This document shows positions 4,946 through 27,971 of a stretch of DNA of 27,971 nt, in pieces. Position numbers and translations under genes: made by a program. Numbering within the stretch: position 1 is the first letter of the stretch; each line of letters opens with the position of its first letter. The DNA is from Coleofasciculaceae cyanobacterium CTOTU46613 (GTDB taxonomy: Bacteria > Cyanobacteriota > Cyanobacteriia > Cyanobacteriales > Coleofasciculaceae), in the NCBI GenBank assembly GCA_031969975.1, contig DALYJI010000033.1, positions 4,095 to 32,065 on the forward strand, written 5' to 3'. The notes beneath the pieces are model-generated. The model ran no database searches and had not been told where the DNA came from. It saw only the letters and a program-made list of their open reading frames with translations.

Positions 4946-4948
4946 TCA

Positions 4949-5815
4949 ATGCGAATTCTAATTACAATCCCCCACTTTTTTAAACCGAAAGACAATAGTA
5001 GGCACGGTTCCCAACGCAAAGACCCTCAGTCCCGCCTAGAAGCATTAAGTAAAAGCCTTGCTGCCTTACACCAGCTATTTGGTAAATCTCAGAGTATTAT
5101 CAATATCAATCAGCGATTAGCTTTTCCGGTTAACCAGCCCCAGGCTCACGAGCTAGATATCGTCATCTGTACAACTAGAGACTGTCATCTGCTAAATCAA
5201 CTTTCCTTACCCGCTCATTTCTATCAGCATTATCCCACTCAGGTAGAACCTTTGTTCCTGGGGTTTGAATGCCAAGCAATCTTGCGGGATTGTCTCGAAC
5301 AGTATGATTATTATTGCTTCCTCGAAGATGATCTGATCCTCCACGATCCCTGGTTTTTTAATAAATTAAGCTGGTTTACCAAGGAGGCAGGAGATCTGTG
5401 CTTGCTCCAACCTAATCGTTATGAAATCTCCACCTATGCTCTCACCTGTAAAGCCTACGTTGACGGCGATTTAGCTTCACGAGTCACCGAGCGCTTTCAA
5501 AATGTAAAAGAGCGATCGCAACTACAAAGCAACATTATGGGGGTTCCTATCACCTTCCAACGCGCTCTCAATCCTCATTCTGGTTGCTACTTTTTGAATG
5601 CCAATCAGATAGCTCATTGGGCGCAGCAATCTCACTTTCTTGATCGCGATACCAGTTTTGTTAGCCCGCTGGAAAGTGCTGCCACTTTGGGAATTATGAA
5701 GACATTCCTAGTCTACAAATCAGTACCGCAACAGGCAAGCTTTTTGGAAATCCAGCACTATGGAACGAGATTTTTAGATCTTATTGGGGAACAGGTAGAT
5801 TTAGCAATATGCTAA
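4949..5815 (+). CDS. Hypothetical protein, possibly a GT-A-like nucleotide-sugar transferase (weak), probably co-transcribed with the upstream glycosyltransferase
   Basis: The 288-aa ORF starts 4 nt after the stop of the GT gene. It has no recognisable family motif other than a DxD-like acidic patch (DYYCFLEDDLIL) after a hydrophobic beta-strand-like segment (LDIVICTT). Its codon usage resembles the neighbours. Confidence 0.45.
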   Translation: MRILITIPHFFKPKDNSRHGSQRKDPQSRLEALSKSLAALHQLFGKSQSIININQRLAFPVNQPQAHELDIVICTTRDCHLLNQLSLPAHFYQHYPTQVEPLFLGFECQAILRDCLEQYDYYCFLEDDLILHDPWFFNKLSWFTKEAGDLCLLQPNRYEISTYALTCKAYVDGDLASRVTERFQNVKERSQLQSNIMGVPITFQRALNPHSGCYFLNANQIAHWAQQSHFLDRDTSFVSPLESAATLGIMKTFLVYKSVPQQASFLEIQHYGTRFLDLIGEQVDLAIC

Positions 5816-5866
5816 GCCTGGTCTTAGGTAGTAAATTATCAATGGGTAATGGGAATTAAAGAACAA

Positions 5867-7060
5867 TTACCAATTACCTATTAACATTTCCACTAACTGG
5901 TCAATCTCACTATACTCAGTAAAGTAGTGAACGCAGGCACGAATGCAGTCTGGATTGTAAAGGGTTCGGAGATAGAAGCCTTGTTTTTCTAATAGTTGTA
6001 CTACTTGCTTAGAGGATTGGCTATTCGTCATGACAAAGGAAACCAAACCAGCTTGAGGGGGTGAAGTTAATAAACAACGGATAGAGTCTAATTGAGATAA
6101 ACGCTGCCACAGGTACTGACTGAGTTGGCAAATTTGTTGGTAACGATCTTCTGGCGTTCCCCATTGCTGCTGAAGAGCGATCGCTTCTCGCAATCCCGCA
6201 TAAAGGGGGTAAGCCGAAGTAGCGACTTCAAAGCGCTTGCCATCGGGTTGCCAACTCACGATATCACCCGTTGCATTAGTGACAGTACTACGCCAACCAA
6301 TAAAGCTAGGGTTAAGGCTGGCTAAAGCATCAGGTCTCACGTAGAGACCCCCAAGACCTTCTGGTCCGCACCACCACTTGTGACCTGTAAAGGCGTAGAA
6401 ATCTGCTTCTAGTTCTGTCAAATTCAAGGGTAGAACTCCTACGGACTGAGCCGCATCTACTAAAATCCGGATGGGTTGGTTATCCGTCGGATAGTTATGA
6501 CAAGCCTTCACAATTTCGGCTAGCGGCAGCACTTGACCCGTGTTCCATAGGATATGACTCAGCACTACTAAGCGCGTGCGAGGTGTCAGGTGTTCCACAA
6601 TCACTGCTGTCGGATCTCCCCCGTTCAGCGTTGCCATAATTGGACAGGTGGATACTTCCACGCCAAACCGCCGTCCGATTTCTGTGGCAGCAGCGAGAAT
6701 GCCGGGATGTTCGCAATCAGTGAGGAGTAAGCGATCGCCAGCTTGCCAGTCAATTCCCCACAAGGCAATATTGCAGCCAATGCTGACATTTTCGGTAAGG
6801 GTGATGGTTTCTGGAGGTGCTTCCAGTTCTTTGGCGATGACTTGTCGGGTTTGGTTAGTTTCCTGAAGTAACCAGCCATAGACCCCACCGGAAAATGGCC
6901 CGTGCTTCTGGATATAGTGATAGGAGTTTTGGATCGCTGCCAGGGAGGCTAAGGATAGCGGGCCTTGACCGCCAAAGTTGAAATAGGCTTTGTTCGCTAA
7001 GGCCGGGAATTGCTGTCGGTAGCGTTCGAGCCGAGTTGATGCACCGTAGATATCAGACAT
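5867..7060 (-). CDS. Aminotransferase class V-fold PLP-dependent enzyme (cysteine desulfurase / isopenicillin-N epimerase-like)
   Basis: The 397-aa ORF has a PLP-lysine motif context (FYAFTGHKWWCGPEGLGGLYVRPD), similar to the HK(x)GPxGxGxLY region of NifS/SufS/CsdA-like enzymes. The N-terminal FNFGGQGPLS and DAAQSVG segments are typical of fold-type I class V. Confidence 0.8.
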   Translation of the reverse strand: MSDIYGASTRLERYRQQFPALANKAYFNFGGQGPLSLASLAAIQNSYHYIQKHGPFSGGVYGWLLQETNQTRQVIAKELEAPPETITLTENVSIGCNIALWGIDWQAGDRLLLTDCEHPGILAAATEIGRRFGVEVSTCPIMATLNGGDPTAVIVEHLTPRTRLVVLSHILWNTGQVLPLAEIVKACHNYPTDNQPIRILVDAAQSVGVLPLNLTELEADFYAFTGHKWWCGPEGLGGLYVRPDALASLNPSFIGWRSTVTNATGDIVSWQPDGKRFEVATSAYPLYAGLREAIALQQQWGTPEDRYQQICQLSQYLWQRLSQLDSIRCLLTSPPQAGLVSFVMTNSQSSKQVVQLLEKQGFYLRTLYNPDCIRACVHYFTEYSEIDQLVEMLIGNW

Positions 7061-7249
7061 AAAAGCGATCGCGAACAGTTGGCTAGCATGATTGTAAAGC
7101 TGGTGCGCTTCCCGCGATCGCTTTCTCCCCCATATCTGCTGTAGGGGCGACCCGCGGTGAATGGTTCAGGTGGATGCGAAGAGGATTTATTGGGTCGCCC
7201 ACGCTCGCCCCTGCATATAACATATATCCCACATGGCGGTGATAATGGG

Positions 7250-17297: not shown

Positions 17298-18860
17298 ATG
17301 CCAAAGGAAAGTCCAAACGTTAGCTTAGATGCCCTGATACCTAGAGAAGCTTTTGAAGTTCTAGGACAACAAAATCAAAACATAGGAAGAAATGTTCCTA
17401 TGATATCAATTCGAGATTTAGAACAAAATTCTTTCTTCTATCCATCTTTAAGGAAGCCAGATTTCCAGCGTGAAACTAATGAGTGGGATGCTGAGAAAAT
17501 ATGTGAGTTTATAGAAAGCTTTTTGGATGGAGATTTAATCCCAGCAGTTATTCTTTGGAGAAGTTCTGGTAGTGACTACTTTGTCATTGATGGCTCACAT
17601 AGACTAAGTTCTTTAATTGCTTGGATAAATGATGATTATGGTGATGGTAAAATTTCCAAAGAATTTTATGATGGAGACATCGCAGAAGAGCAGAAGAGTG
17701 CTGCTCAGATGGTAAGAAAATTGATTAATGAAAGGATAGGTTCTTACAAGCATTATCAATCTTTAACACAGCATCGAGGAGAAGTAGACCCAAAAATTCT
17801 TGATAGAGCAAGAAACTTAGGCGCTTTAGGTATACAGCTTCAGTGGGTTGAAGGTGATGTACGCAAAGCAGAAGATTCTTTCTTCAAAATCAACCAAAAA
17901 GCAGCGCCAATAGGTGAAACTGAGATACGTTTGTTACAAGCTCGAAATACACCTAATGGTGTTGCTACTCGTGCCATCATGAGAAGTGGTAACGGACATA
18001 AGTATTGGTCAGACTTTTCTCATGAGAAGCAAGAAAATATTGAGAAATTAGCTCAAGAAATACATCAACTCATTTTTGAACCTAAGCTGAAAAATCCTAT
18101 TAAGACTTTAGACGTACCAATAGTAGGAAATTTGTCATCTTCAGAAAAACTTGAATTAATATTAGAGTTTGTCAATATAGTTAATAATATAGAAGAAGAT
18201 AATCAATTGGGAAACGATTCAACGGGAGATAAGACAGTACAACTGTTAAGAAATTGCAAAAAAGTAGCTCAAAGGATAAATAGCAAAGACCCTTCATCTC
18301 TTGGTCTTCATCCAATAATATATTTCTATACGAGTGCTGGAAAGCCTAAAATTGGCTCATTTTATGGTGTTGTTGCCTTGATGTTAGATTTAGAAAAAAC
18401 TAAATCTTTTTCTAAGTTTATACAAATTAGAAAAGATTTTGAGTGGGTGATTTGGCAAGATGATATGGTTCCACAGATTGTCAGTAAGAGCAGTGCAGTA
18501 AAGGCGAGAGGAAAGGTTAAAGATTTTTATCGACAAATCATTGACAAATTATCTGAAGGAGTAGACAAGAAAAATGTCATGAAGGAGATAGTTGCTGAAA
18601 AAACATTTGGTTCTTTAAAAAGAAAAACAAAAGGGAATACCAGTGAAACCGCAAGTAAAGAATTTTCACGAGAGACAAAATCAGCAGCATTTATCAGAGA
18701 TACTTTACCTGGTTCTCCACGATGTAGAATTTGTGAGGGATATCTCCCCAGTAGCTTTTGCTCTATAGACCATAAAATAAGAAAAGCAGATGGTGGCTTA
18801 GGTACTTTAGAGAATGCCCAGTTGACTCACCCATACTGTAATACAACATTCAAAAATTGA
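17298..18860 (+). CDS. DUF262 (ParB/Srx-fold, GmrS-like) N-terminal domain fused to a C-terminal HNH (His-Me finger, Cys4 zinc) nuclease motif. This is a GmrSD/type IV restriction-like putative defence nuclease.
   Basis: N-terminus: DFQRETNEWDAEKICEFIESFLDGDLIPAVILW...YFVIDGSHRLSSL fits the DUF262 signature ((F/Y)QR...W...DGQQR(L)). C-terminus: CRICEGYLPSSFCSIDHKIRKADGGLGTLENAQLTHPYCN fits HNH (CxxC...DH...N...HxxC). The gene is AT-rich (about 35% GC by eye, against about 48% for the neighbours) and has no HIP1 sites. A strong SD sequence (AAAGGAG) lies 7 nt upstream of the ATG. Confidence 0.8.
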   Translation: MPKESPNVSLDALIPREAFEVLGQQNQNIGRNVPMISIRDLEQNSFFYPSLRKPDFQRETNEWDAEKICEFIESFLDGDLIPAVILWRSSGSDYFVIDGSHRLSSLIAWINDDYGDGKISKEFYDGDIAEEQKSAAQMVRKLINERIGSYKHYQSLTQHRGEVDPKILDRARNLGALGIQLQWVEGDVRKAEDSFFKINQKAAPIGETEIRLLQARNTPNGVATRAIMRSGNGHKYWSDFSHEKQENIEKLAQEIHQLIFEPKLKNPIKTLDVPIVGNLSSSEKLELILEFVNIVNNIEEDNQLGNDSTGDKTVQLLRNCKKVAQRINSKDPSSLGLHPIIYFYTSAGKPKIGSFYGVVALMLDLEKTKSFSKFIQIRKDFEWVIWQDDMVPQIVSKSSAVKARGKVKDFYRQIIDKLSEGVDKKNVMKEIVAEKTFGSLKRKTKGNTSETASKEFSRETKSAAFIRDTLPGSPRCRICEGYLPSSFCSIDHKIRKADGGLGTLENAQLTHPYCNTTFKN

Positions 18861-18980
18861 ATATTCCTAGACTAGCCATAAAATTAACCCTACAATTAAC
18901 TATGGCAATCGCTCGTGCGATCGCACCTCTATAGCAATTTTAAAATCAGCTTTCTGGTTGAAAAGCTCAACCAGATTCTA

Positions 18981-19016
18981 AACAAAAAGCCTCCCATTCA
19001 GGAGGCTTTATTCTCA
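18981..19016. terminator. Bidirectional rho-independent terminator between the convergent genes 17298..18860(+) and 19039..22179(-)
   Basis: An 8-bp GC-rich stem AAGCCTCC (18987-18994) / GGAGGCTT (19001-19008) with loop CATTCA. It is flanked by TATTCTC on the + strand and, on the - strand, by TTTTGTTT (complement of AACAAAAA at 18981-18988). Confidence 0.6.
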
Positions 19017-19038
19017 CATTATGTATGAAGTTGTGGCA

Positions 19039-22000
19039 TCAATAACCAAACATCGCTAAACCCCCTACGCCTAACACCCCAGCGAAAGCTGCAACTGCGA
19101 CGGAAGTAATCGCCGTACCAAACAACCACCAAGCTGCGGTTGCAGCGGCTTTTCGGGTTTCTTTCAGTTGCTTCTTAGCCTTATGTTTGAGTTCTTTAAC
19201 TCGTTTTTGAGCTTCCTCTTGCAGGCGTTCGGCGCGGCTGAGTATGCTATCGCGCATCCCTTCAATTTGGTTGACGATCCGATTAGCATCTGCCTGGGAG
19301 ATGTCCTCGCGGGAACTCAAGATCGCTACCAAGGTATCCCGATCGAATTGACTCAGCCGATCGCGCAGCGCTTCCAATCCCGCTTCTGGATCGTCAAACA
19401 GCTTGCGCAAGTCTCCCTTAATCCCTTCATAGTTTAGTTCGGGGCGATCGAGGGAGTTGAGGTAATTCCGGATTCTGCCAAAAATGCTGTCCATCGCAGA
19501 TTGGACTTGGTGTTGGACAGCTTGCACTTGTTCGACCAACTGATGGCGAACGGAGTCGATATTATCCGCAATTCGGTTCGCGTCCTCCTCGGAAATATCC
19601 TCCCGTTGCGATAGCAGTGCCACAAGGGTATCCCGATCGAACTGCGCAAGGCGATCGCTCACACTCTTCCACCCTGCTTGGGGGTCTTTAAATAACAGTT
19701 GCAAGTCTCGCTCGATCCCTTCGGGATTGAGTTCTTCTTTGTTGGTATTCCGCAAGTACTCTTCAAATTCGGCTCGGTAATCCCGTACCGTATCTTTAGC
19801 ACGACTGGCCAAGCGTCGCGGTGCTTTGATAATGCTGCGAATCGCATCCTGTACGCGATCGATAATCCGATTCACTTGCTCCTCGCTCAAGTTTTCCCGC
19901 TGACTAAGAAGTTTGACCAAGGTGTCCCGATCCACTTCCGAGAGCCGTTCGCGTAGTGCTAATGCTCCTGCTTTCGGGTCATCTAGGAGTTTTGCCAAAT
20001 CCTGCTTGATGCCTTCGGGGTCGAGTTCATCCAGATTGGTGTTCCGCAAATACTCGGCAATTTGATGCGTCAGGCGATCGTACTGCTCCTTAGCCTTACC
20101 TGTTAATTCTTGGGGTGCATTCAGGATGCGATCTCGCACTTCTAAGAAGCGATCAATAACCTGATTAATCTGTTCCTCACTCAAATCGCCGCGCTGACTT
20201 AACAATTGCACCAGCGTATCGCGGTCAAATTCCGAAAGCCTTTGCTGTAAAGCTTTTAGTCCTGCTTGGGAGTCATCTAGGATAGTTTGCAAACCTCGCT
20301 TGATGCCTTCAGGATTTAGTTCTTCTTTGTCGATCTCGCCCAGGTAGGATTCTATCGTTTGCCTGAACTCTTCTGCTTTAGATTTTGCTTGGTCTTGCAG
20401 ATTTTGAGCCTGTGACAAAATGCGATCGCGAGTGCTTTCCAGTCGCTCGACAATTTGATTCGCTTCCTCTTCACTCAGGTCTTGACGTGCTGCTTTAAGC
20501 ATCTGCACTAAGGTGTCGCGATCGAACTGCGAGAAGCGATCGCGCAGTGCATCAATACCAGCCTCTGGGTCTTCCAGAAGTGCTTGGAAATCGCGCTCAA
20601 TACCTTCTGGATTCAGTTCTTCTTTACCCGTCCCGGCTAGATAGTTTTCAACCCTACTACGGAGGTCTTGCGATCGCTGTTGACCTTCAGACTCTTGCAC
20701 CAAGTTATATACTTCCGTCCGCAGTTCTTCTAGCTGATCTGCAATCTCAGAAACGCGCTCGGAGTCGAAGTCACCCCGCTGATTCAGCAGTTGTACGAAG
20801 TAGTCTCGATTCAGTTGCTCTAGCTGCTGGCGAACGATGCCTGAAGCTGCTTCCACGTCATAGATAACGTCTCTAAATTCCTGTTTAATCGTCTCTCGAT
20901 TCAGGTGCCAAGGTTTGGAATTGAGCAGGTAGTTTTCAACATCTGCCTTAATTGTGTTGAAGGGTTGATGCAGTATCTGATCAGCAACCTGAGTGGAAAG
21001 GGTTTTAGCTTGCTCGGTTGCTTTATCTTTGAACTGTTGCAACTGGCTAGAAATTTTTTCCACATCTAGATCGGAGAGATCTGTCCGCGTCAGTACTCTA
21101 CCCACTAGAGCGCTAATACCCAGTTGCAAGGCTTGTTCCCCGAAGCCACCATTGCCATTACCGCCATCGGATTTGCTCGAGCCAACTCCAACTAGTTGTC
21201 CGAGCCTATCGCTAAGCCGATCGGAGGTTAGCTCTTCTGGACTGGCAGACTCAAGGAAATTGAGCAGTTTTGCCTGCGGATTAATCTGTTGTTGATGACC
21301 CAATACTTGCTGCCAAGCAGCTTCTAGTTGGTCTGCAATCCGATTAACGTCTTGTTTGGATAGATCTGTACGACTGCTAATTAAATCAACGAACGTCTGA
21401 CGGTTCACGTTTTGCAGAATGTCACTATCAGCAATAGACCTCAACTCCGAACCAATGAGCAAATTTTCAAAATCCTTGCGAATTTGTTTGAGGTCTAACT
21501 TGGGTATTTGCAGATCGGCGACGTAGTCTTGTAACGTCTCCCGGACGCGAGTCGGGTTAACCGCACCCCTCAATTCGCGGCGAACAGCAGCTACAGATGC
21601 ATCGACCGTATTGACAATCTGAGCGTTTGCCGCTCTGCCACCTAGAGCTGTAGCTACTACAGCCATGACTCCTTGCCAGCTTGAACCAGCTGTACTAGCA
21701 ACGGAACCTACAATAGAACCAATCCCCCTCGAACTAACCCACAGTAGCAGCAAGAAGTATGCTGACCAGATCACAACGCCTGTAATGCCTCCCAGAATCA
21801 GGCTGTTAATTAAGGTCAGTTTCACGGCCAGAAAACACGCCATGAATAAGGCAATGTTGACGGTAACTAAAGCCCATGCCCCTACCTTGGATTCAACTAC
21901 GCTAATCTTACCACCCCAGGTTTCGGCCTCCTCAGCCTCTAAGGGATTCTCCCCGGCTGAAATGCCTGCGGCGAGCGTGAAATTGGTTAACAAAAATTGG

Positions 22001-22179
22001 AAAGCAAACGCCATGAGTACCCCAGCAATCAAGGCGATAAAAAATTGCGATCCCGAAAAGACCAGTGCCCCCTGTTCTGGAGTATTAATGACTCCAGACG
22101 CGGTCGGATCTGATGGCATTTGGGCAAGCCAGAGTGGTGCGTTGCACAACCCTAGCAACATTCCCACACTTTGAAACAT
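19039..22179 (-). CDS. Large membrane protein of unknown function: an N-terminal polytopic TM region (~4-5 helices), then about 8 tandem ~100-aa alpha-helical repeats, then a C-terminal TM anchor
   Basis: 1046 aa. The N-terminal hydrophobic segments are FFIALIAGVLMAFAFQFLL, WALVTVNIALFMACFLAVKLTLI, ILGGITGVVIWSAYFLLLLWV and VMAVVATALGG. The repeat consensus is (E/R)NYL..T.KEELNPEGI..DL..LLDDP.AG..ALR.RLS.FDRDTLV.LLSQR.DLSEE..N.I.D.....R..IL; five well-conserved copies and three degenerate ones are visible. The C-terminal segment is AAWWLFGTAITSVAVAAFAGVLGVGGLAMFGY. Confidence 0.7.
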   Translation of the reverse strand: MFQSVGMLLGLCNAPLWLAQMPSDPTASGVINTPEQGALVFSGSQFFIALIAGVLMAFAFQFLLTNFTLAAGISAGENPLEAEEAETWGGKISVVESKVGAWALVTVNIALFMACFLAVKLTLINSLILGGITGVVIWSAYFLLLLWVSSRGIGSIVGSVASTAGSSWQGVMAVVATALGGRAANAQIVNTVDASVAAVRRELRGAVNPTRVRETLQDYVADLQIPKLDLKQIRKDFENLLIGSELRSIADSDILQNVNRQTFVDLISSRTDLSKQDVNRIADQLEAAWQQVLGHQQQINPQAKLLNFLESASPEELTSDRLSDRLGQLVGVGSSKSDGGNGNGGFGEQALQLGISALVGRVLTRTDLSDLDVEKISSQLQQFKDKATEQAKTLSTQVADQILHQPFNTIKADVENYLLNSKPWHLNRETIKQEFRDVIYDVEAASGIVRQQLEQLNRDYFVQLLNQRGDFDSERVSEIADQLEELRTEVYNLVQESEGQQRSQDLRSRVENYLAGTGKEELNPEGIERDFQALLEDPEAGIDALRDRFSQFDRDTLVQMLKAARQDLSEEEANQIVERLESTRDRILSQAQNLQDQAKSKAEEFRQTIESYLGEIDKEELNPEGIKRGLQTILDDSQAGLKALQQRLSEFDRDTLVQLLSQRGDLSEEQINQVIDRFLEVRDRILNAPQELTGKAKEQYDRLTHQIAEYLRNTNLDELDPEGIKQDLAKLLDDPKAGALALRERLSEVDRDTLVKLLSQRENLSEEQVNRIIDRVQDAIRSIIKAPRRLASRAKDTVRDYRAEFEEYLRNTNKEELNPEGIERDLQLLFKDPQAGWKSVSDRLAQFDRDTLVALLSQREDISEEDANRIADNIDSVRHQLVEQVQAVQHQVQSAMDSIFGRIRNYLNSLDRPELNYEGIKGDLRKLFDDPEAGLEALRDRLSQFDRDTLVAILSSREDISQADANRIVNQIEGMRDSILSRAERLQEEAQKRVKELKHKAKKQLKETRKAAATAAWWLFGTAITSVAVAAFAGVLGVGGLAMFGY

Positions 22180-22502
22180 AGTTTTTTCCTCTTTAAAGCT
22201 TGAGCAGGCGCAAAGTTAGCGTTATCCTCACCTTTCCCTCTTCTTGTAACGCCACAACACGCCTAACTTAATGTTTATCGCTAAAAACTGAACCTAACTC
22301 CCTCTAAGGTTTGAAAAGTGCCAGGACTTTTTGATATTTTATCTAACGTTGTTAAAAAAGTCTCCTTTATACCTTTAGGTGTACCCATATCTACTACTTT
22401 TGACGTAAAGCTTGCTATCCCAGCTTTCTTCTCTGGGAGGCTTCTAACTTGAAAGTCGGGAATCGGGAGTGGGAAATATTACTTTCATATCCTGAGATGC
22501 GT

Positions 22503-25500
22503 TTACTCAGGGCTAGCCGTCAAGTCAATAATTTCTTCAAACTGGAAGTTATTAACTAAATCCTTAAGCGCTTCGATGAGGGAAGCGTACTCTTGAGGAA
22601 TTTGCGCAACCAAGCCTAAAACTAGCTCGTCGTTACATGCCATGGCGGCATTGTGTAGTTGTACGACCCACTGGGTTGGTAGTTGAGCAAAGTAACGTTT
22701 AATTTCAGCCGATGTCATCATCTCTGGAGTATTTTGGCTAGCGCTTTGGGTGTTGATGGTTTGCTCTTCCCAAACGTAGATGGCCCCTAGGTGTTGGCTC
22801 ACTTTTTCTAGTAATACTTCCTCTCGAAATGGCTTGCCCACAAAATCATCACAGCCTGCTGACAAAATCATCTGTCGCTGATCCTCAAACGTGCTGGCTG
22901 TCAGGGCAATAATTTTAGTTTTGGGGCGCGGTAATTGGTGATAGGTAATTGTTGCTAGGGAAGCTTGTCCTGTAACGTGAGAATTTTGAGTTGGGAATTC
23001 CTCATCCCTCACTCTTTCCTGCTCCCTCGCTTTAATATAACGGGTGGCTTCATACCCATCCATGACTGGCATTCGCATATCCATGAAGATGAGGTGGGGT
23101 TGCCAAGTTGCCCACAACGCGATCGCTTCTCGTCCATTTTCTGCCTCTCGCACCAGAAAACCGATGGATGTGAATAGCGCGACTACTACTAGACGGCTCT
23201 CAAAGCGATCGTCAACTACTAAGATGCGATAGTCAGGTTGGTTTGGTGCTAAACCAGTTACTTGACATTTGGTTGGCGTTGTCTCAACATTAATGGCCTC
23301 AGTTAGCGCTACCTGGATATTAAAGGTAAAAATACTGCCCTTACCTAGGATACTGCTAATGCTGATATCTCCTCCCATGAGCTGAACGAATTTGCGGCTA
23401 ATTGGTAAGCCTAATCCAGTCCCTTGCTGAGATTTTCGGCCTGTTTCTGTTTGCCCGAAAGGTTCAAATAATAGGTCAATTTCAGTAGGAGCAATGCCGG
23501 AGCCTGTGTCTTCTATTTCAAATATAATGGTTGTTTGTTGTTGGTTGTTGGTTGTTGGTTGTTGGTTGTTTTTGGGAAGTTTTGCTCTTAAAAAGACATG
23601 TCCTTTGTTGGTAAATTTAATGGCATTTGAGAGGAGGTTAATTAAACAAGATCTTAGTTTGCCTTCATCGGTTTTTATGTAGTCGGGCAGGTTGGGAGCA
23701 ATTTCAAAAATTAGCTTTAAACCCTTGGATTCCGCTCTTAAGCGAAACATTTGTTTCACAGAGTCTAACAAGTGAATTAAGCTAAAGCAATTTTCCGACA
23801 AGGCAATTCTGCCTGCCTCGATTTTGGACATTTCTAGGACATCGTTGATTAAATCTAACAGATGCTCGCCAGCGCGATTAATAATTCCCAAGTATTGCTG
23901 ATGCTTAGCAGACAGGGATGAATCGCGATTCATGATTTGAGTAAAGCCGAGGATGGCGTTGAGTGGAGTACGTAATTCGTGGCTCATATTTGCTAAAAAT
24001 TCGCTTTTAGCGCGGTTGGCGGCATCGGCGGCATAGACAGCTTGTTGCAGTGCTGTTGACTGTCTTTGGGTTTCTTCTAGCAGTTCTGCCTGTTGTAAGG
24101 CAACTCCTAGCTGATTGCCAATTTGCACAACGATATTAATTTCTGCTGTTTTCCATTGGCGGGCACCAGAATTTTGATAGGTTGCTAGTAATCCCCAAAG
24201 TTGACTGCGGCAGAAAATCGGTACGGTAACGTAGGCTCTCGCTTGAAATTGCTCTAACAGCTGAACGTAACAGCTGGGAAACTCCGCCTGATAAATGTCT
24301 GGAACGCACAGGTAATTTACACCTTGGCGGTAAGCACCGCCTTTGGTGTCTTGCAGGTAAGTGTCTCGTACTAGGTCATCAATGCTAGTTAAATTTTTTA
24401 CATGACAAAGAGAGTCTTCTAGAGTATTTTCTGTAAAGGTAGCGTCATAGTGTTGCTGCCTCATGAGAGAAATCCACTTACCCCCTACCGACTCGGCAAC
24501 GAACTCTCCACTCCAGTCGGGATTGAACCGATAGACGACAACGCGATCGCAATTAATCACTTGGCGCAATTCTTGGGTGGTAGCGGTGAATATCGCTTCG
24601 ATATCCAAGGTTTGGCGCATTCTTTGGATGACTTTAGCGATCGCTCTTTCCCGCTGAGCCATCTGTCGCAGGGTTTCTTCTGCCTGTTTGCGTTCGGTGA
24701 TGTCCCGTCCTTCCGCAACTAGGAACATCACGTTATGACTGGAGTCCAAGACGGGTTTGACGGAAAAGTCAATGGTGGTAAAGGTGTATCCTGCACCTCG
24801 AATATCAACTTCATAACGAACAATGCTACCTGCCGCAGCACGAGTGATCGCTTCTTGCAATTGTTGCTGTTTTGGCGACAGACGAGGCGCGTTCTTTCTG
24901 GGATACTTGCTTGTCTTTTTACGTTTTCCAGGTTCAGTCCACCATCGGGTTTCCCAAAATGGACTCCCAACTGCCTCGGATAGTTCACTCCCAGCAAAGT
25001 CAAGAGCCGTTTGATTGGCATCTAGCAGGGTGCCATCGGGTTGTAATACTGCTGTAAATTGGAAACTGGAATTAAAAATAGCGCGAAATCGCTGTTCGCT
25101 CTCGCTGAGCGCAGCTTCGGCTTGTTTCTTGTCGCTAATATCAAAAATTACGCCATCAAGCCATAGTAGTACCCCGGTGGCATCAAAAATGCCTCTGCCT
25201 TTTTCGTAAACCCAAGCAATGCTGCCATCGGCTCGCATCATTCGATAATCGATCAGGAAAGGTTGTCTATTGGCTACACTTTCCCAGACTATTCTCTGAA
25301 CCTGATGTCGATCGTCGGGATGGATGATACTGGCAAAGGTGCGCACTTGATTGTTAATAAAATCGTTGGGTGGATAACCGGAAATTTCTAAAATGGCCGA
25401 GCTGATGAACGCCATCGTCCAGTCAGCATCGCAAAGGCAGCGGTAAACAGCGCCAGGGATATTGGAGACTAATGTTCTAAACCGTTCTTCTCGTTCTCGC

Positions 25501-26903
25501 AGCGTTGCCTCGGCTTGCTTGCGATCGCTGATATCGGTGTTAGAGCCTACCATGCGCACGGGGACTCCTCGTTCATCCCATACAGCCTGTCCTCTGCCCA
25601 AAATCCACTTATAACTGCCATCTTTGCACCGCAAGCGATGCTCAACGGCGTAATGGGGAATTTGGCGATCGAGGTAAGCTTGTTTGGTGGTCATCACTCG
25701 GTCGATATCCTCGGGATGGATGCGATCGAGCCATTCATTATTGTTATTTTCTATTTCGTGGTCTTCATAACCCAACATTTCTTTCCAACGGGTGGATCGA
25801 AAGATTTCTCCAGTAATTAGGTTCAAGTCCCATATTCCGTCATTATTGCCCTTGAGGACTAACTGCCAGCGTTCTTCAAGTTGTCGAATGGCAGCCTCTG
25901 CCTGTTTGCGTTCTCGTGCTTCAATGGCTAACGAAACTAAATCTGCCAGGGAGCGGGCGAAGTTCTGGTCTTCTGGCGTCCAGTGACGAGCAGCACCGAC
26001 CTGTTCTAAGCATATAACTCCTGCCGTTTGCCCCTTGATCTGGATGGGCGTATCCAGCATGGAGGCAATGCCTAAGGGGGTCAAATAAGACTCGGAAAAT
26101 TCTCGGGTTCTCGGATCGGTGTGAGCGTCATCTGCTGCGATCAGCTGGTCTTGCTGTAAGGCTTGAAAATAGGTTGGATAGTTTGTTGCTAGCAGTTCAA
26201 TGCCTGCACTATGCTGGTTACCACTCTTCTCAAATAAGTCAAGGCACTTAATTTTACTACCTGTGTCATCATAGATCCATATGCTAGAGCGTTCGACATC
26301 GATATTATAAGCACTAGCTTCTGTAATCTCTTGTAAAGCAGCTGGAAAATTTCCCTGATTTAAAGCTGGACTTTTGGCTAGTTGTGCCAAACTTAGGTTG
26401 TGATTGCGTAGCTTATGGGCACTCTCTGCCAAGGCTTCTTGGGCGCGTTGGCGTTCTGAGATTTCCCGTTGCAGTTGTAGGGTTTGTTCCCGCAGCGATA
26501 ACCGCTGGCGCACGATGGTTAACTGATTTTCTACACGGGCTATGACCTCTTCAATTTGAATTGGTTTGCTAATGTAATCGACACCACCGACGCTAAAGGC
26601 TTTTACCTTATCCAACCCCTCATCGAGCGCACTTAAGAAGATCACCGGAATCTCGCAGGTAGTTTCGCTGGCTTTGAGTTGTTGGCAAACTTCATAGCCA
26701 TTCAGATCGGGCATCATGATATCGAGCAAAATTAGATCTGGCGGATCGCAACGGGCTACAGTCAAAGCTAGTTTGCCGTTAATGACTCGACGAACTTCAT
26801 AGCCGTACTGTGTAAGCAGTGAGGATAGCAGGTGCAAGTTTTCCGGGACATCATCAACGATTAAGATGTCTCCTTTCGGTTGGGAAGTGCGATCGCTAAC
26901 CAT
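22503..26903 (-). CDS. Multi-sensor hybrid histidine kinase: REC - coiled coil - GAF - PAS/PAC x3 - GAF - HisKA - HATPase_c (with an N/Q-rich insert) - REC - conserved C-terminal ~70-aa domain
   Basis: 1466 aa. The N-terminal receiver is ILIVDDVPENL...DLILLDIMMPDLNGYEVCQQLK. PAS/PAC-like segments follow (WDLNLITGEIFRSTRWKEMLGYE; VYRCLCDADWTMAFISSAILEISGY). The H-box is ANMSHELRTPLNAILGF. HATPase motifs are NLLSNAIKFT (N-box), EIEDTGSGI (G1) and GTGLGLPISRKFVQLMGG (G2). The second receiver is RILVVDDRFESRL...IFMDMRMPVMDGYEATRYIK...KIIALTAS. The start ATG at 26903 overlaps the stop of the upstream paralogue by 8 nt. Confidence 0.93.
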   Translation of the reverse strand: MVSDRTSQPKGDILIVDDVPENLHLLSSLLTQYGYEVRRVINGKLALTVARCDPPDLILLDIMMPDLNGYEVCQQLKASETTCEIPVIFLSALDEGLDKVKAFSVGGVDYISKPIQIEEVIARVENQLTIVRQRLSLREQTLQLQREISERQRAQEALAESAHKLRNHNLSLAQLAKSPALNQGNFPAALQEITEASAYNIDVERSSIWIYDDTGSKIKCLDLFEKSGNQHSAGIELLATNYPTYFQALQQDQLIAADDAHTDPRTREFSESYLTPLGIASMLDTPIQIKGQTAGVICLEQVGAARHWTPEDQNFARSLADLVSLAIEARERKQAEAAIRQLEERWQLVLKGNNDGIWDLNLITGEIFRSTRWKEMLGYEDHEIENNNNEWLDRIHPEDIDRVMTTKQAYLDRQIPHYAVEHRLRCKDGSYKWILGRGQAVWDERGVPVRMVGSNTDISDRKQAEATLREREERFRTLVSNIPGAVYRCLCDADWTMAFISSAILEISGYPPNDFINNQVRTFASIIHPDDRHQVQRIVWESVANRQPFLIDYRMMRADGSIAWVYEKGRGIFDATGVLLWLDGVIFDISDKKQAEAALSESEQRFRAIFNSSFQFTAVLQPDGTLLDANQTALDFAGSELSEAVGSPFWETRWWTEPGKRKKTSKYPRKNAPRLSPKQQQLQEAITRAAAGSIVRYEVDIRGAGYTFTTIDFSVKPVLDSSHNVMFLVAEGRDITERKQAEETLRQMAQRERAIAKVIQRMRQTLDIEAIFTATTQELRQVINCDRVVVYRFNPDWSGEFVAESVGGKWISLMRQQHYDATFTENTLEDSLCHVKNLTSIDDLVRDTYLQDTKGGAYRQGVNYLCVPDIYQAEFPSCYVQLLEQFQARAYVTVPIFCRSQLWGLLATYQNSGARQWKTAEINIVVQIGNQLGVALQQAELLEETQRQSTALQQAVYAADAANRAKSEFLANMSHELRTPLNAILGFTQIMNRDSSLSAKHQQYLGIINRAGEHLLDLINDVLEMSKIEAGRIALSENCFSLIHLLDSVKQMFRLRAESKGLKLIFEIAPNLPDYIKTDEGKLRSCLINLLSNAIKFTNKGHVFLRAKLPKNNQQPTTNNQQQTTIIFEIEDTGSGIAPTEIDLLFEPFGQTETGRKSQQGTGLGLPISRKFVQLMGGDISISSILGKGSIFTFNIQVALTEAINVETTPTKCQVTGLAPNQPDYRILVVDDRFESRLVVVALFTSIGFLVREAENGREAIALWATWQPHLIFMDMRMPVMDGYEATRYIKAREQERVRDEEFPTQNSHVTGQASLATITYHQLPRPKTKIIALTASTFEDQRQMILSAGCDDFVGKPFREEVLLEKVSQHLGAIYVWEEQTINTQSASQNTPEMMTSAEIKRYFAQLPTQWVVQLHNAAMACNDELVLGLVAQIPQEYASLIEALKDLVNNFQFEEIIDLTASPE
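23529..23570. repeat. Heptanucleotide microsatellite (GGTTGTT)n, ~6 units, inside the HATPase_c coding region of kinase 22503..26903; it encodes NNQQPTTNNQQQTT on the minus strand
   Basis: Read directly: ggttgtt tgttgtt ggttgtt ggttgtt ggttgtt ggttgtt. The reverse complement AACAACC in a 7-nt register rotates through N-N-Q-Q-P-T-T every three units (21 nt). Confidence 0.9.
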
Positions 26904-27971
26904 TACTTATTAAATCAATTATTTCATCAAGACGGAAATCGTTAACTTTCTGGCCTATCCCTTCAGCTAGAGCCGCATATTCTGAAGGAATTTGCTCAAT
27001 CAGCTTCCAAATGTCTTTTTCTCTAGCCGAAACTGCGGCAGCATAAAGCTTAGCAACCCATTCAGCAGGCATCTGGGCTAAAGCTTCCTTTAAACAGGGT
27101 ACGCTAGGTGATGCTAAATTTGCTTTGAATTCGCCATTGGCCGTTTGGGGTTCATCATGTAAGGGAGCTGGTTCTTCGTAAATATAGTGCACCCCTAAAT
27201 ATTGAGACATTTTCTCCAAAATTTCTTCCTCTCGGAACGGCTTGCGTACAAAATCGTTACATCCAGCAGACAAGGCCAGGTGGTAGTCTTGTTCAAAAGC
27301 GTTAGCTGTCAAGGCGATAATGGTGGTTTGAGGCTGGGGAGTCGTGGGGGACAACTCATGATGTCTAATCTGCTTAGTCGCCTGGTAGCCATCCATCACG
27401 GGCATTCGTATATCCATCCAAATTAGGTGTGGTTGCCAACTTGACCATAAGGCTATAGCATCTTGACCATTTTCCGCTTCTCGCACTGTAAAACCTGCCG
27501 TTGTGAGGAGATGAACTAATAACAGGCGGCTTTCCCAACAATCCTCAACCACCAAGATGCGATAGTTGGGTTGGCGAGGTGCTAGGGCAATTGCTTGACG
27601 CTGGGGTTGTGTGGCCTGAATCTCAGCCGCTTTTCCCAGGCTAACCTGAATATCGAATTGAAAAATCGCTCCTTGGCCTAATTTACACCTTACCGATATA
27701 TCCCCTCCCATCAGTTGCACGAATTTGCGGCTAATGGCTAAGCCTAATCCCGTGCCTTGCTGAGATTTGCGCCCCGTTTCTGTTTGTCCAAAGGGTTCAA
27801 ACAGGAGATCGATTTCTGCCGGAGCAATGCCAGGGCCAGTATCTTCTACTTCAAAGATTATGGTTGTTGGTTGTTGGTTGTTGGTTGTTGGTTGTTGGTT
27901 GGTGGTTGGTGGTTGGTGGTTGTTGGTTGTTGGTTGTTGGTTGTTGGTTGTTGGTTGGTGGTTGTTGGTTG
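26896..27971 (-). CDS. Hybrid histidine kinase, paralogue of 22503..26903 (5'-partial: only the HATPase_c C-terminal part, REC and C-terminal domain lie in the window)
   Basis: The listed ORF 26896..27720 begins at an internal Met. The same frame continues upstream without a stop through 27721..27971: the reverse complement encodes ...EVEDTGPGIAPAEIDLLFEPFGQTETGRKSQQGTGLGLAISRKFVQLMGGDISV preceded by the poly-N/Q/P/T repeat. The REC domain is RILVVEDCWESRL...IWMDIRMPVMDGYQATKQIR...TIIALTAN. The C-terminal ~70 aa are about 50% identical to the C-terminus of the downstream kinase (LAQMPAEWVAKLYAAAVSAREKDIWKLIEQIPSEYAALAEGIGQKVNDFRLDEIIDL vs FAQLPTQWVVQLHNAAMACNDELVLGLVAQIPQEYASLIEALKDLVNNFQFEEIIDL). 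Confidence 0.88.
   Translation of the reverse strand, partial: TNNHQPTTNNQQPTTNNHQPPTTNQQPTTNNQQPTTIIFEVEDTGPGIAPAEIDLLFEPFGQTETGRKSQQGTGLGLAISRKFVQLMGGDISVRCKLGQGAIFQFDIQVSLGKAAEIQATQPQRQAIALAPRQPNYRILVVEDCWESRLLLVHLLTTAGFTVREAENGQDAIALWSSWQPHLIWMDIRMPVMDGYQATKQIRHHELSPTTPQPQTTIIALTANAFEQDYHLALSAGCNDFVRKPFREEEILEKMSQYLGVHYIYEEPAPLHDEPQTANGEFKANLASPSVPCLKEALAQMPAEWVAKLYAAAVSAREKDIWKLIEQIPSEYAALAEGIGQKVNDFRLDEIIDLISNG
27862..27971. repeat. Long heptanucleotide microsatellite of at least 15.7 units, (GGTTGTT)5 (GGTTGGT)3 (GGTTGTT)5 GGTTGGT GGTTGTT GGTTG..., running off the window end. It sits in the equivalent position of the paralogous kinase 26896..>27971.
   Basis: Units were parsed base by base from 27862; every 7-mer is either GGTTGTT or GGTTGGT. 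The minus strand has no stop codon in any frame (only A/C), so the ORF remains open. It encodes a poly N/Q/P/T loop. Confidence 0.9.

What the first reader, a model, noticed from the sequence alone, without database searches (positions are those of the whole stretch)
27862..27971. At least 16-unit heptanucleotide (GGTTGTT/GGTTGGT) microsatellite inside a histidine-kinase coding sequence, a slipped-strand contingency candidate
A perfect 7-nt periodic tract longer than 110 nt sits inside the HATPase_c domain (between the N-box and the G1 box) of the upstream hybrid kinase and continues past the window edge. Because 7 is not a multiple of 3, translation cycles through three frames of AACAACC and gives an N-N-Q-Q-P-T-T low-complexity loop. 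Gain or loss of a single unit would frameshift the kinase, separating HisKA from the HATPase/REC output domains. Only changes of 3 units preserve the frame. Long perfect non-triplet microsatellites within ORFs are the classic substrate for phase variation. This is unusual for a two-component sensor and reminiscent of the heptameric STRR elements of filamentous cyanobacteria, although the sequence does not match STRR1-3.
Basis: seen in the sequence. Interest (0 to 1): 0.6.

Follow-up and report, generated by a model that had tools for sequence, protein, structure and literature searches.

The report
Variable 7-base repeat inside kinase gene
A real, fast-changing 7-base repeat sits in frame inside a surface loop of a cyanobacterial signalling kinase. 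It looks like a tolerated by-product of the 7-base repeats common in cyanobacteria, and no evidence shows it works as an on/off switch.

Summary
The repeat is real. Window 27861-27971 holds 15.9 copies of a 7-nt unit with no indels, made of 11 TGGTTGT and 4 TGGTTGG units. On the coding (-) strand it reads (AACAACC/ACCAACC)n and lies between the N box and the G1 box of HATPase_c.

A 61-kb contig of the same organism (L081) is 100% identical to window 12503-27915. It shows the whole gene: a 2048-aa Ser/Thr-kinase/AAA/GAF/HisKA/HATPase/REC dual kinase. There the tract is 27 units (189 nt, 63 aa) and is in frame.

The adjacent paralogous kinase carries the same heptamer (6 units, in frame) at the homologous codon. 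In 104 related kinase copies this loop ranges from 45 to 342 nt. It holds 21 of the 105 period-7 arrays found but only 1.2% of the DNA, and every repeat-bearing loop is in frame. AlphaFold2 places the tract as a disordered excursion between two confident beta-strands.

Four assemblies with identical flanking proteins differ inside the tracts or break there, so the tract appears hypervariable.

No frameshifted allele attributable to unit slippage was found. The tract lies 81% of the way into the ORF, in a cytoplasmic sensor.

Verdict: a tolerated, slippage-prone, STRR-like microsatellite. Phase variation remains possible but unsupported.

The parts
27861..27971 (-). Heptanucleotide array (AACAACC/ACCAACC)n on the coding strand. 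This is the promoter-distal 15.9 of what are 27 units in the complete allele. It encodes a Q/N/P/T/H-rich loop, and the window ends inside it.
   Evidence: TRF; unit parse; excess over shuffles; complete allele in L081 8854-9042.
26896..27971 (-). 3' part (357 codons) of a 2048-aa dual Ser/Thr-His kinase gene ('p1'). It covers the second half of HATPase_c (G1, F and G2 boxes), the REC domain and a C-terminal tail.
   Evidence: Open frame; Pfam; full gene L081 3862-10008.
27826..27861 (-). Beta-strand plus G1 box (IIFEVEDTGPGI) immediately downstream of the tract.
   Evidence: Translation; D/T/G/G invariant in the 44-sequence alignment; strand E182-190 with pLDDT above 90 in the model.
27211..27558 (-). 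Receiver (REC) domain of p1.
   Evidence: Pfam Response_reg residues 138-253, E=1.3e-24.
27304..27363 (-). Decayed AACAACC-like remnant (HHELSPTTPQPQTT) in the REC loop just before the IIALTA strand. Intact AACAACC arrays occupy this position in other genera.
   Evidence: L022 9660-9693, L073 751-784 and L073 6580-6611 read ..QPTTNNQQPTT..IIALTAS.
23528..23570 (-). Second array of the same heptamer (6 units, KNNQQPTTNNQQQTT). It sits at the homologous loop of the adjacent paralogous hybrid kinase, in frame in a complete ORF.
   Evidence: TRF; translation; loop of 81 nt, phase 0.
22503..26903 (-). Paralogous hybrid kinase 'p2' (1466 aa: REC-GAF-PAS x n-GAF-HisKA-HATPase_c-REC).
   Evidence: ORF; Pfam.
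26896..26903 (-). 8-nt overlap (ATGGTTAG) between the p1 stop codon and the p2 start codon. It is a possible translational coupling, so premature termination in p1 could be polar on p2 (inference).
   Evidence: Sequence; ORF coordinates.

Best explanation
The tract is a slippage-prone heptanucleotide microsatellite of the kind that fills cyanobacterial genomes (STRR-like).

It has expanded inside the coding DNA for the beta-hairpin loop that joins the strand after the N-box helix to the strand carrying the G1 box. The gene is an HstK-type dual Ser/Thr-His kinase.

(AACAACC)n has no stop codon in any frame. It is translated as a disordered Q/N/P/T-rich excursion that projects from an otherwise intact Bergerat fold, so the insertion is tolerated.

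Replication slippage, and probably unequal exchange, keep changing unit number and unit order. This explains why otherwise identical genomes differ here and why short-read assemblies break here. Purifying selection on the kinase removes alleles whose length is not a multiple of 3. What is seen in consensus genomes is therefore an in-frame length-variable loop.

Out-of-frame variants (a change of 1 or 2 units) must arise. They would end the protein 0-5 codons after the tract, losing the G1, F and G2 boxes and REC. I regard these as mutational load, not a programmed switch.

Shown: the repeat, its position, the in-frame complete allele, the paralogue tract, the family-wide loop hot spot, predicted disorder, and differences between assemblies.

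Inferred: slippage as the generator, selection as the frame filter, and functional neutrality of the loop.
For: 1. Complete allele. L081 is 100% identical to window 12503-27915. It carries 27 units (189 nt) in an uninterrupted 2048-aa ORF with intact H, N, G1, F and G2 motifs.

2. Paralogue. The same heptamer occupies the same codon position in adjacent p2, with 6 units in frame.

3. Family-wide pattern. In 104 kinase copies from 81 loci the N-box-to-G1 spacer ranges from 45 to 342 nt, and 101 are in phase 0. Orthologues differ by whole codons: Coleofasciculus 189 vs 102 nt, and Microcoleus 240, 246, 282 and 288 nt.

4. Hot spot. 21 of 105 period-7 arrays lie in these loops, which make up 1.2% of the DNA. 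The expectation is 1.3 (binomial p=1e-19). 16 of 104 loops carry an array, with at least 14 different heptamers, and all are in frame. This points to a permissive site that collects whatever heptamer arises there.

5. Structure. The AlphaFold2 model has strands 109-116 and 182-190 and the rest of the domain at pLDDT above 90. Residues 117-181 (the tract) are coil at pLDDT about 45-50. The model matches solved kinase cores (RetS, GacS, HK853, ShkA) at E of about 1e-16.

6. Variability confined to the tracts. There are 8 differences in the distal 56 nt against 0 in 15,413 flanking nt between the window and L081. UBA9273 and UBA8803 proteins are identical over 1664+321 and 1031+341 residues. They read differently, or are longer, inside the tracts.

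7. No hairpin potential. Neither strand can fold (MFE 0 kcal/mol), because one strand is pure G/T and the other pure A/C. This is consistent with simple slippage, not structure-driven instability.

8. Literature. Heptanucleotide repeats are the most over-represented long SSR class in many bacteria, including cyanobacteria (PMC4692102, PMC4679880).
Against: - Only one complete allele of this tract exists in the data. Three of four assemblies break or gap at it, so out-of-frame alleles could not have been seen even if common.
- The differences between assemblies could partly be de Bruijn-graph mis-resolution of a repeat longer than k.
- A perfect non-triplet repeat this long, inside a gene under selection, is a large mutational burden. 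Its persistence, and the persistence of the same heptamer at the same site in several genera (P0002, P0061, L003, L073), could mean it is maintained for a reason.
- Neutrality of the 63-aa loop for kinase activity is assumed, not tested.
Confidence: 0.6

Rival explanations
1. True contingency locus. Gains and losses of one or two heptamers switch the histidine-kinase/receiver half of the dual kinase on and off within a population. Through the overlapping stop/start they may also switch the downstream paralogue. This would give bet-hedging in signalling.
For: - The unit is non-triplet, the array is long, and stops follow 0-5 codons after the tract in both alternative frames.
- The tract differs between assemblies that are otherwise identical.
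- Assemblies break at the tract in 3 of 4 cases, which within-sample heterogeneity would also cause.
- The same unit, AACAACC, is a proposed phase-variation tract in and near a TonB-dependent receptor gene of Haemophilus influenzae (PMC2651432).
- The 8-nt p1-stop/p2-start overlap offers a route to polarity.
Against: - No OFF allele was seen. The complete allele and both copies of the paralogue tract are in frame, as are all 16 heptamer-bearing loops in other genomes. If a third of alleles were OFF, seeing none in 16 would have probability of about 0.002.
- The one split gene found (L084) is shifted at a G7 homopolymer in a 5x long-read assembly, not in the AACAACC array.
- The array is a mosaic of three unit types, with a longest pure run of 5 units.
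- The tract lies at 81% of the ORF, whereas phase-variable coding SSRs concentrate near N-termini (PMC3315296).
- The gene class is a cytoplasmic sensor.
- Many cyanobacteria carry several chromosome copies, which would blur an on/off switch (own knowledge).
Confidence: 0.17
2. Functional tuning knob. In-frame changes in loop length or composition (steps of 3 units, or 7 residues) modulate kinase activity, partner binding or condensate formation through a Q/N-rich disordered arm. Variability is then selected, but as a rheostat and not as a switch.
For: - In-frame length differences occur between orthologues and between strains.
- TTNNQQP-type loops recur in several genera.
- Both arrays here have unit counts divisible by 3: 27 and 6.
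Against: - Loops in this family carry at least 14 unrelated heptamers and other repeats, encoding very different peptides. This argues against a sequence-specific role.
- The hairpin is predicted to be disordered, with no conserved residues.
- Unit variants show no significant codon-phase preference (8, 2 and 4 across the three phases, n=14; counted by hand from the unit string, chi-square p about 0.13).
Confidence: 0.15
3. Assembly artefact. The tract or its length is produced by the assembler cycling in a short repeat at a contig end.
For: - The window ends inside the tract and also begins inside a 243-nt tandem repeat.
- The distal 56 nt disagree with L081.
- In a metagenome sample, 28 of 128 (AACAACC)>=4 arrays lie at contig edges.
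Against: - The tract is spanned by an independent 61-kb contig with unique flanks on both sides, inside an intact ORF.
- Two further MAGs end in the same tract from both sides.
- A shorter copy sits in the middle of the window, in the paralogue.
- Homologous tracts exist in other species.
Confidence: 0.03

Closest known systems
STRR (short tandemly repeated repetitive) heptanucleotide sequences and other long simple-sequence repeats of cyanobacteria (Calothrix PCC 7601 heptamers as cited in PMC4692102; TAACTGA repeats, PMC4679880)
   Same: The unit is 7 nt in head-to-tail arrays, and the host is a cyanobacterium. HIP1 (GCGATCGC) occurs 34 times against 0.36 expected, and the best relatives are Coleofasciculaceae. 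Period 7 dominates tandem repeats in related DNA. Slippage is the presumed generator.
   Different: The unit AACAACC is not STRR1-3 as I recall them (CCCCAGT, TTGGTCA, CAACAGT; from memory, not tested). Described heptamer arrays are mainly intergenic or at protein termini (PMC4692102, PMC4679880). This one is inside a catalytic domain, at a recurrent site.
Intragenic heptanucleotide SSRs proposed to mediate phase variation in Haemophilus influenzae: (AACAACC)8-13 in an HI1369-like TonB-dependent receptor ORF, and (AATTTTG)14 inside hmw1A (PMC2651432)
   Same: The unit sequence (AACAACC) is identical, the unit is non-triplet and sits inside an ORF, and unit number differs between strains.
   Different: In H. 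influenzae the genes are surface proteins of a host-adapted pathogen, and a frameshifted allele was observed (hmw1A in strain PittAA). Here the gene is a cytoplasmic sensor kinase, the tract is interrupted, and only in-frame alleles are seen.
HstK / cbSTKIII 'dual protein kinases' of filamentous cyanobacteria (PMC2176072)
   Same: The gene has an N-terminal Ser/Thr kinase domain, a GAF domain and a C-terminal HisKA-HATPase_c.
   Different: This concerns the host gene, not the repeat. This member also has an AAA_16/STAND-like module, a C-terminal REC and the 63-aa repeat-encoded loop. No repeat insertion is mentioned in the passages of that survey that I read.
Solved histidine-kinase catalytic cores (RetS 6DK7, GacS 7Z8N, HK853 2C2A/3DGE, ShkA 6QRJ)
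   Same: The DHp plus Bergerat-fold CA domain matches at Foldseek E of about 1e-16.
   Different: The solved cores are 222-240 residues long. The query is 291 residues, and the extra ~63 residues are the unstructured tract between two strands.

Membership tests
Cyanobacterial heptanucleotide tandem repeats (STRR-like) | Head-to-tail array of a 7-nt unit | tested here: met
   TRF period 7: 15.9 copies in the window and 27.1 in L081, with 0% indels.
Cyanobacterial heptanucleotide tandem repeats (STRR-like) | Host genome is a cyanobacterium rich in such repeats | tested here: met
   HIP1 occurs 34 times against 0.36 expected. Relatives are all cyanobacteria. 105 merged period-7 arrays were found in 947 kb of related loci.
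Cyanobacterial heptanucleotide tandem repeats (STRR-like) | Unit equals one of the named STRR1-3 sequences | tested here: not met
   The units are AACAACC, ACCAACC and AAAAACC. The STRR1-3 consensus sequences are recalled from memory, not from a database.
Cyanobacterial heptanucleotide tandem repeats (STRR-like) | Predominantly intergenic or at gene periphery | tested here: not met
   The tract lies at residues 1665-1727 of a 2048-aa ORF, inside HATPase_c.
SSR contingency (phase-variation) locus | Repeat unit not a multiple of 3, inside an ORF, so that unit changes shift the frame | tested here: met
   The unit is 7 nt. Alternative frames stop 0 and 5 codons after the tract.
SSR contingency (phase-variation) locus | Unit number differs among closely related strains | tested here: inconclusive
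   The p2 tract is longer in UBA9273. The order of p1 units differs between the window, L081 and UBA9273, while flanks are identical. However, three of the four assemblies are incomplete at the tract, and mis-assembly cannot be excluded.
SSR contingency (phase-variation) locus | Both in-frame (ON) and out-of-frame (OFF) alleles occur | tested here: not met
   All complete alleles are in frame: L081 p1, window and L081 p2, and 16 of 16 heptamer-bearing loops elsewhere. The one split gene (L084) is shifted at a G7 run in a 5x assembly. Read-level data were not available.
SSR contingency (phase-variation) locus | Long uninterrupted tract, usually near the 5' end of a surface, restriction-modification or similar gene | tested here: not met
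   The array is a mosaic of three unit types with a longest pure run of 5 units. It sits at 81% of the ORF, in a cytoplasmic multi-domain kinase. The positional expectation comes from PMC3315296.
SSR contingency (phase-variation) locus | Reversible switching within a clonal population | not testable with these tools
   This needs spanning reads or culture experiments.
Histidine kinase catalytic core (HisKA + HATPase_c) | H box, N box, G1, F and G2 motifs and the Bergerat fold | tested here: met
   Pfam HisKA E=1.1e-23 and HATPase_c E=1.1e-22. N96, N100, K103-F104-T105, D190-T191-G192-G194 and the G219-G221-L222-G223-L224 positions are invariant in the 44-sequence alignment. Fold match to RetS, GacS and HK853.
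HstK / cbSTKIII dual protein kinase | N-terminal Ser/Thr kinase domain, at least one GAF domain, C-terminal His kinase | tested here: met
   Pkinase 7-258, GAF 1353-1494, HisKA 1516-1582 and HATPase_c to 1799. The definition is from PMC2176072.

The most novel reading that the evidence does not exclude
Heptamer arrays sit at two fixed loops of paralogous cyanobacterial hybrid kinases: the HATPase_c hairpin before the G1 strand, and the REC loop before the IIALTA strand.

On the most novel reading these are a maintained hypermutable module, in one of two forms. In the first, they act as population-level on/off or rheostat switches spread over dozens of sensors. In the second, they act as shared microhomology junctions: perfect (AACAACC)4-5 runs lie in the same orientation in genes 4.4 kb apart, and through them the catalytic/receiver halves of paralogous kinases could be exchanged.
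Probability: 0.1. Interest if true: 0.75.

Novelty: new member of a known kind. Interest (0 to 1): 0.4.

Why it matters
If the ordinary reading holds, the locus has three practical consequences:
- It is a clean example of how a genome-wide mutational habit (heptamer slippage) writes low-complexity loops into enzymes wherever the fold allows.
- It warns annotators that such tracts split or truncate kinase gene calls and break short-read assemblies. Many 'response regulator' entries of 300-440 aa start in or just after this loop.
- It offers a potentially sensitive strain-typing marker, because the tract differs between assemblies that are otherwise identical over 15 kb.

The loop hot spot (16 of 104 kinase copies, about 16-fold enrichment) was not mentioned in the papers I could search. 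It could be mined systematically.

If the tract did switch a two-component sensor on and off, that would extend contingency loci from pathogen surfaces to free-living cyanobacterial signalling.

Tried and rejected
1. Metagenome scan for the unique downstream flank plus tract start (31 nt) found nothing. No further alleles came from that collection.

2. Metagenome scan for (AACAACC)4 returned 128 arrays in 116 loci. None lies next to a HATPase G1 box or a REC beta-4 strand by my motif test, which does recognise the window's own sequence pattern. I therefore dropped the idea that this heptamer is specific to kinase loops. It is a widespread motif, including in eukaryote-like poly-Thr contexts.

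3. The genome-contig scan did not return the source species. Strain comparison had to rely on cluster members.

4. DNA for UBA9273 (P0122, P0128) and for Moorena P0011 is not on record.

5. Truncated gene calls as candidate OFF alleles:
   - L082 (Moorena) is an intact ORF with a ~270-aa repeat insert that the annotator cut.
   - L083 has a 100-N gap.
   - L084 is frameshifted at a G7 homopolymer in a 5.16x long-read contig.
   None is evidence for heptamer slippage.

6. Higher-order 21-nt periodicity of the 27-unit array, checked by hand on the unit string. Unit identity is 54% at lag 3 and 50% at lag 1, so there is no signal. TRF's higher 21-nt score only reflects a richer consensus.

7. Hairpin or cruciform potential is nil: MFE is 0 on both strands. 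G-quadruplex formation was not modelled. Only GG runs are present.

8. The three apparent out-of-phase loops (L037, L055, L061) contain no tandem repeats. They probably reflect my projection from gapped tblastn hits. They were not followed further.
Full report
**1. Observation**

The repeat is in the sequence as described. Tandem Repeats Finder reports window 27861-27971 as period 7, 15.9 copies, 96% matches, no indels, score 194. Unit by unit it holds 11 TGGTTGT, 4 TGGTTGG and a last partial unit. It is strictly periodic but not homogeneous.

The 14-mer GGTTGTTGGTTGTT with up to 2 mismatches occurs 22 times in the window. The expectation from shuffles is 0.26. All but one of the 22 matches fall in two places: this tract, and a second array at 23528-23570 (TRF 6.1 copies).

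The + strand of the tract is pure G/T and the - strand pure A/C. Neither strand can fold on itself (MFE 0).

**2. Coding context**

On the - strand, the frame that starts at 27969 is open through the tract to a stop at 26896. It reads TNNHQPTTNNQQPTTNNHQPPTTNQQPTTNNQQPTT-IIFEVEDTGPGI.... Pfam finds the second half of HATPase_c (profile positions 35-108) followed by a receiver domain. The other two frames stop 0 and 5 codons after the tract.

The window ends inside the tract and begins inside a 243-nt RTX-type tandem repeat. The exact-protein index records a 20-50 kb contig carrying the neighbouring gene. I infer that the window is a whole contig broken at repeats on both ends.

**3. The complete gene**

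An exact look-up of the neighbouring 1466-aa protein returned a 61-kb ENA contig (L081). Window 12503-27915 is 100% identical to it. All 8 mismatches lie in the distal 56 nt of the tract.

In L081 the gene is complete: 3862-10008, 2048 aa. Its domains are:
- Pkinase, residues 7-258
- AAA_16, residues 298-497
- a sub-threshold TPR_CHK1-like stretch
- GAF, residues 1353-1494
- HisKA, residues 1516-1582
- HATPase_c, split by the tract
- REC, residues 1829-1944

This is the HstK/cbSTKIII 'dual protein kinase' architecture of filamentous cyanobacteria (PMC2176072).

The tract there has 27 units (189 nt, 63 residues): 14 ACCAACC, 11 AACAACC and 2 AAAAACC. The longest homogeneous run is 5 units. The ORF is uninterrupted. 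The H, N, G1, F and G2 motifs are all present, at positions invariant in a 44-sequence alignment.

**4. A paralogue with the same repeat at the same place**

The next gene downstream (22503-26903, -) encodes a 1466-aa REC-GAF-PAS-GAF-HisKA-HATPase-REC hybrid kinase. Its start codon overlaps the first gene's stop by 8 nt.

It carries six AACAACC-type units (KNNQQPTTNNQQQTT) immediately before TTIIFEIEDTG. This is the codon position homologous to the first tract, and it is in frame.

**5. Family-wide picture**

Homologues are abundant in cyanobacteria: 1824 proteins at E<=1e-30. Many have low-complexity sequence at exactly this loop. Several carry TTNNQQP-type peptides (P0002, P0061, P0015, P0017, P0116, P0004). 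Others carry QPTNL pentapeptide repeats or TTDNGQL.

In 80 genomic loci plus L081, I paired N-box and G1-box hits for 104 kinase copies. The spacer ranges from 45 to 342 nt and is in phase 0 in 101 of them. The three exceptions contain no repeats and probably reflect my coordinate projection.

Orthologues differ by whole codons:
- Coleofasciculus: 189 vs 102 nt
- Microcoleus: 240, 246, 282 and 288 nt

Period 7 is the commonest tandem-repeat period in these 947 kb (109 of 347 TRF rows). After merging, 21 of 105 period-7 arrays lie in the loops, which make up 1.2% of the DNA. The expectation is 1.3 (binomial p=1e-19). 16 of 104 loops carry an array, with at least 14 different heptamers, and all are in frame. 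Some of these loci are orthologues, so the 16 are not fully independent.

A second, smaller hot spot is the REC loop just before the IIALTA strand. AACAACC arrays sit there in L022 and twice in L073. The window's own gene has a decayed remnant (PTTPQPQTT, 27304-27363) at that position.

**6. Structure**

An AlphaFold2 model of residues 1545-1835 (44-sequence alignment, mean pLDDT 79.6) gives:
- the N-box helix (87-104)
- a strand (109-116)
- 65 residues of coil at pLDDT of about 45-50, which is the tract
- a strand (182-190) ending in the G1 box

The rest of the domain has pLDDT above 90. The model matches solved kinase cores (RetS 6DK7, GacS 7Z8N, HK853, ShkA) at E of about 1e-16. Those cores are 222-240 residues long, against 291 here. 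The tract is therefore an excursion from the tip of a beta-hairpin in an otherwise standard fold.

**7. Variation between near-identical genomes**

The 90%-identity clusters of the two kinases contain pieces from two further MAGs, UBA9273 and UBA8803. Outside the tracts these pieces show no mismatches: 0 in 1664, 1671, 321 and 304 residues for the first kinase, and 0 in 1031 and 341 residues for the second.

Inside the tracts they differ:
- UBA9273's first-kinase fragment ends at a contig edge reading KTNHQPPTTNQQQLTTNNQPPTTNN. L081 reads KTNHQPPTTNQQPPTTNQQPTTT...
- UBA8803 has the gene split into two 'partial' proteins on one contig, which suggests a gap at the tract.
- UBA9273's paralogue fragment starts MNHNKQQTTNNQQPTTNNQQPTTNNQQQTT. 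That is at least twice as many units as the window's KNNQQPTTNNQQQTT.
- The window's own distal units (A5 C3 A5 C A ...) cannot be derived from L081's order (A5 C2 A C2 K C A2 ...) by a simple deletion.

Either the tracts mutate orders of magnitude faster than their flanks, or assemblers resolve them differently. I consider the first explanation more likely, but it is not proven.

**8. Testing the contingency-locus idea**

In favour:
- The unit is non-triplet, with immediate stops in both alternative frames.
- The tracts appear hypervariable.
- The very same unit, AACAACC, is a proposed phase-variation tract in and near a TonB-dependent receptor gene of H. influenzae (PMC2651432).

Against:
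- Every complete allele is in frame, here and in 16 of 16 heptamer-bearing loops elsewhere.
- The candidate split genes I chased do not show heptamer slippage. They were an annotator's truncation of an intact ORF (L082), a 100-N gap (L083), and a shift at a G7 run in a 5x long-read assembly (L084).
- The array is a mosaic with short pure runs.
- It lies at 81% of the ORF, whereas coding SSRs used for phase variation concentrate at N-termini (PMC3315296).
- The gene encodes a cytoplasmic sensor.
- Many cyanobacteria are oligo- or polyploid (own knowledge), which would blur a switch.

The decisive data would be reads spanning the tract, counted modulo 3. These were not available.

**9. Mechanism proposed**

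Steps (a) to (d) are partly shown and partly inferred, as marked:
- (a) Heptamer arrays arise and turn over by replication slippage throughout these genomes. Their abundance is shown. The mechanism is inferred from the literature (PMC4679880, citing Mrazek et al.).
- (b) Most coding positions cannot accept them. The tip of this hairpin, and one REC loop, can (shown by the hot-spot statistics and the model).
- (c) (AACAACC)n is open in all six frames, so it is translated as a Q/N/P/T-rich disordered arm (shown).
- (d) Selection on the kinase removes alleles whose length is not a multiple of 3. Consensus genomes therefore show in-frame length polymorphism (inferred from in-frame conservation).

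Out-of-frame variants would lose the G1, F and G2 boxes and REC while keeping the Ser/Thr kinase, AAA, GAF and HisKA parts. They might also lower translation of the downstream paralogue through the ATGGTTAG overlap (inference).

**10. Comparison with known systems, and novelty**

The tract belongs to the known class of cyanobacterial heptanucleotide tandem repeats. It differs in unit sequence from STRR1-3 (from memory) and in lying inside a catalytic domain. It resembles intragenic heptamer SSRs of H. influenzae in form but fails the tests that define a contingency locus.

I file it as a new member of a known kind. The recurrent loop hot spot is the most interesting by-product, and I found no description of it in the searchable literature.

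A metagenome scan showed that (AACAACC)>=4 is widespread in unrelated contexts, and that 28 of 128 arrays lie at contig edges. The heptamer itself is not kinase-specific.

**11. Scores**

Interest is 0.4. However, the best-supported reading is an ordinary tolerated microsatellite. The switch reading keeps about 17% probability. A broader 'maintained hypermutable module or recombination junction' reading keeps about 10%.

Noticed in passing
window 7250-9886 (-): This 878-aa ORF is a full-length Major Vault Protein homologue (Pfam Vault 2.4e-67, MVP_shoulder 2e-54, plus Vault_2, Vault_3 and Vault_4). MVP is the shell protein of eukaryotic vault particles, and here it sits on a cyanobacterial contig. 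Its origin (ancient or horizontally transferred), and whether it assembles, were not examined.
   Followed up: no
window 1-538, with ORFs 186-1088 and 1304-2554 (+): A 243-nt tandem repeat (2.0-2.2 copies, 82-86% matches) encodes RTX/HemolysinCabind nonapeptide repeats. The window starts inside it, just as it ends inside the heptamer tract. This suggests a contig broken at repeats on both ends.
   Followed up: partly
window 26896-26903: The stop codon of the dual kinase and the start codon of the next hybrid kinase overlap by 8 nt (ATGGTTAG). A HIP1 site (GCGATCGC, 26889-26896) lies directly beside the overlap. This is possible translational coupling of two paralogous sensors.
   Followed up: no
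L022 9660-9693; L073 751-784 and 6580-6611; window 27304-27363: This is a second recurrent site for AACAACC arrays: the receiver-domain loop immediately before the IIALTA(S) strand. Both hot-spot sites are followed by a strand beginning T-(T)-I-I.
   Followed up: partly
L082 about 2700-3410 (Moorena sp. SIO3C2); L002 5652-5995: The same hairpin loop is expanded to about 270 residues (L082) and 114 residues (L002). The expansions are 15-nt QPTNL/QPANL repeats. In L082 they are preceded by LKVDRSDQ-type repeats that look like the reverse complement of the same units, forming an inverted-repeat arrangement inside a coding loop. The annotated protein (P0012, 308 aa) starts only after the insert, although the ORF is open.
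   Followed up: partly
L001 5928-5999; L011 4520-4592: Loops reading SVVSSQWSVV...TTDNGQLT contain two different heptamer arrays (GTCAGTA/GTGGTCA and ACAACGG). They are near reverse complements of each other, which makes a potential hairpin within the coding loop.
   Followed up: no
window 13382-15070 (+) and 14560-14781: A Ser/Thr kinase is fused to six WG_beta_rep repeats. The 102-nt tandem repeat reported by TRF corresponds to these WG repeats.
   Followed up: no
window 2690-4945 (+): A glycosyltransferase family 4 domain is fused to a C-terminal PPIC-type peptidyl-prolyl isomerase (rotamase) domain. This is an unusual combination.
   Followed up: no
window 19039-22179 (-) and 17298-18860 (+): The first is a 1046-aa ORF with only weak Apolipoprotein-like and Bac_DNA_binding-like hits, likely a long coiled-coil protein. 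It lies next to a GmrSD_N (DUF262) restriction-like protein.
   Followed up: no
L084 4019-6125 (Caldora sp., 5.16x long-read contig): A REC-HisKA-HATPase-REC kinase is called as two overlapping ORFs. The frame changes at a G7 homopolymer within a GGGAGAT-like repeat in the same hairpin loop, upstream of an AACAACC-type array. It is probably a sequencing error but is a candidate natural frameshift.
   Followed up: partly
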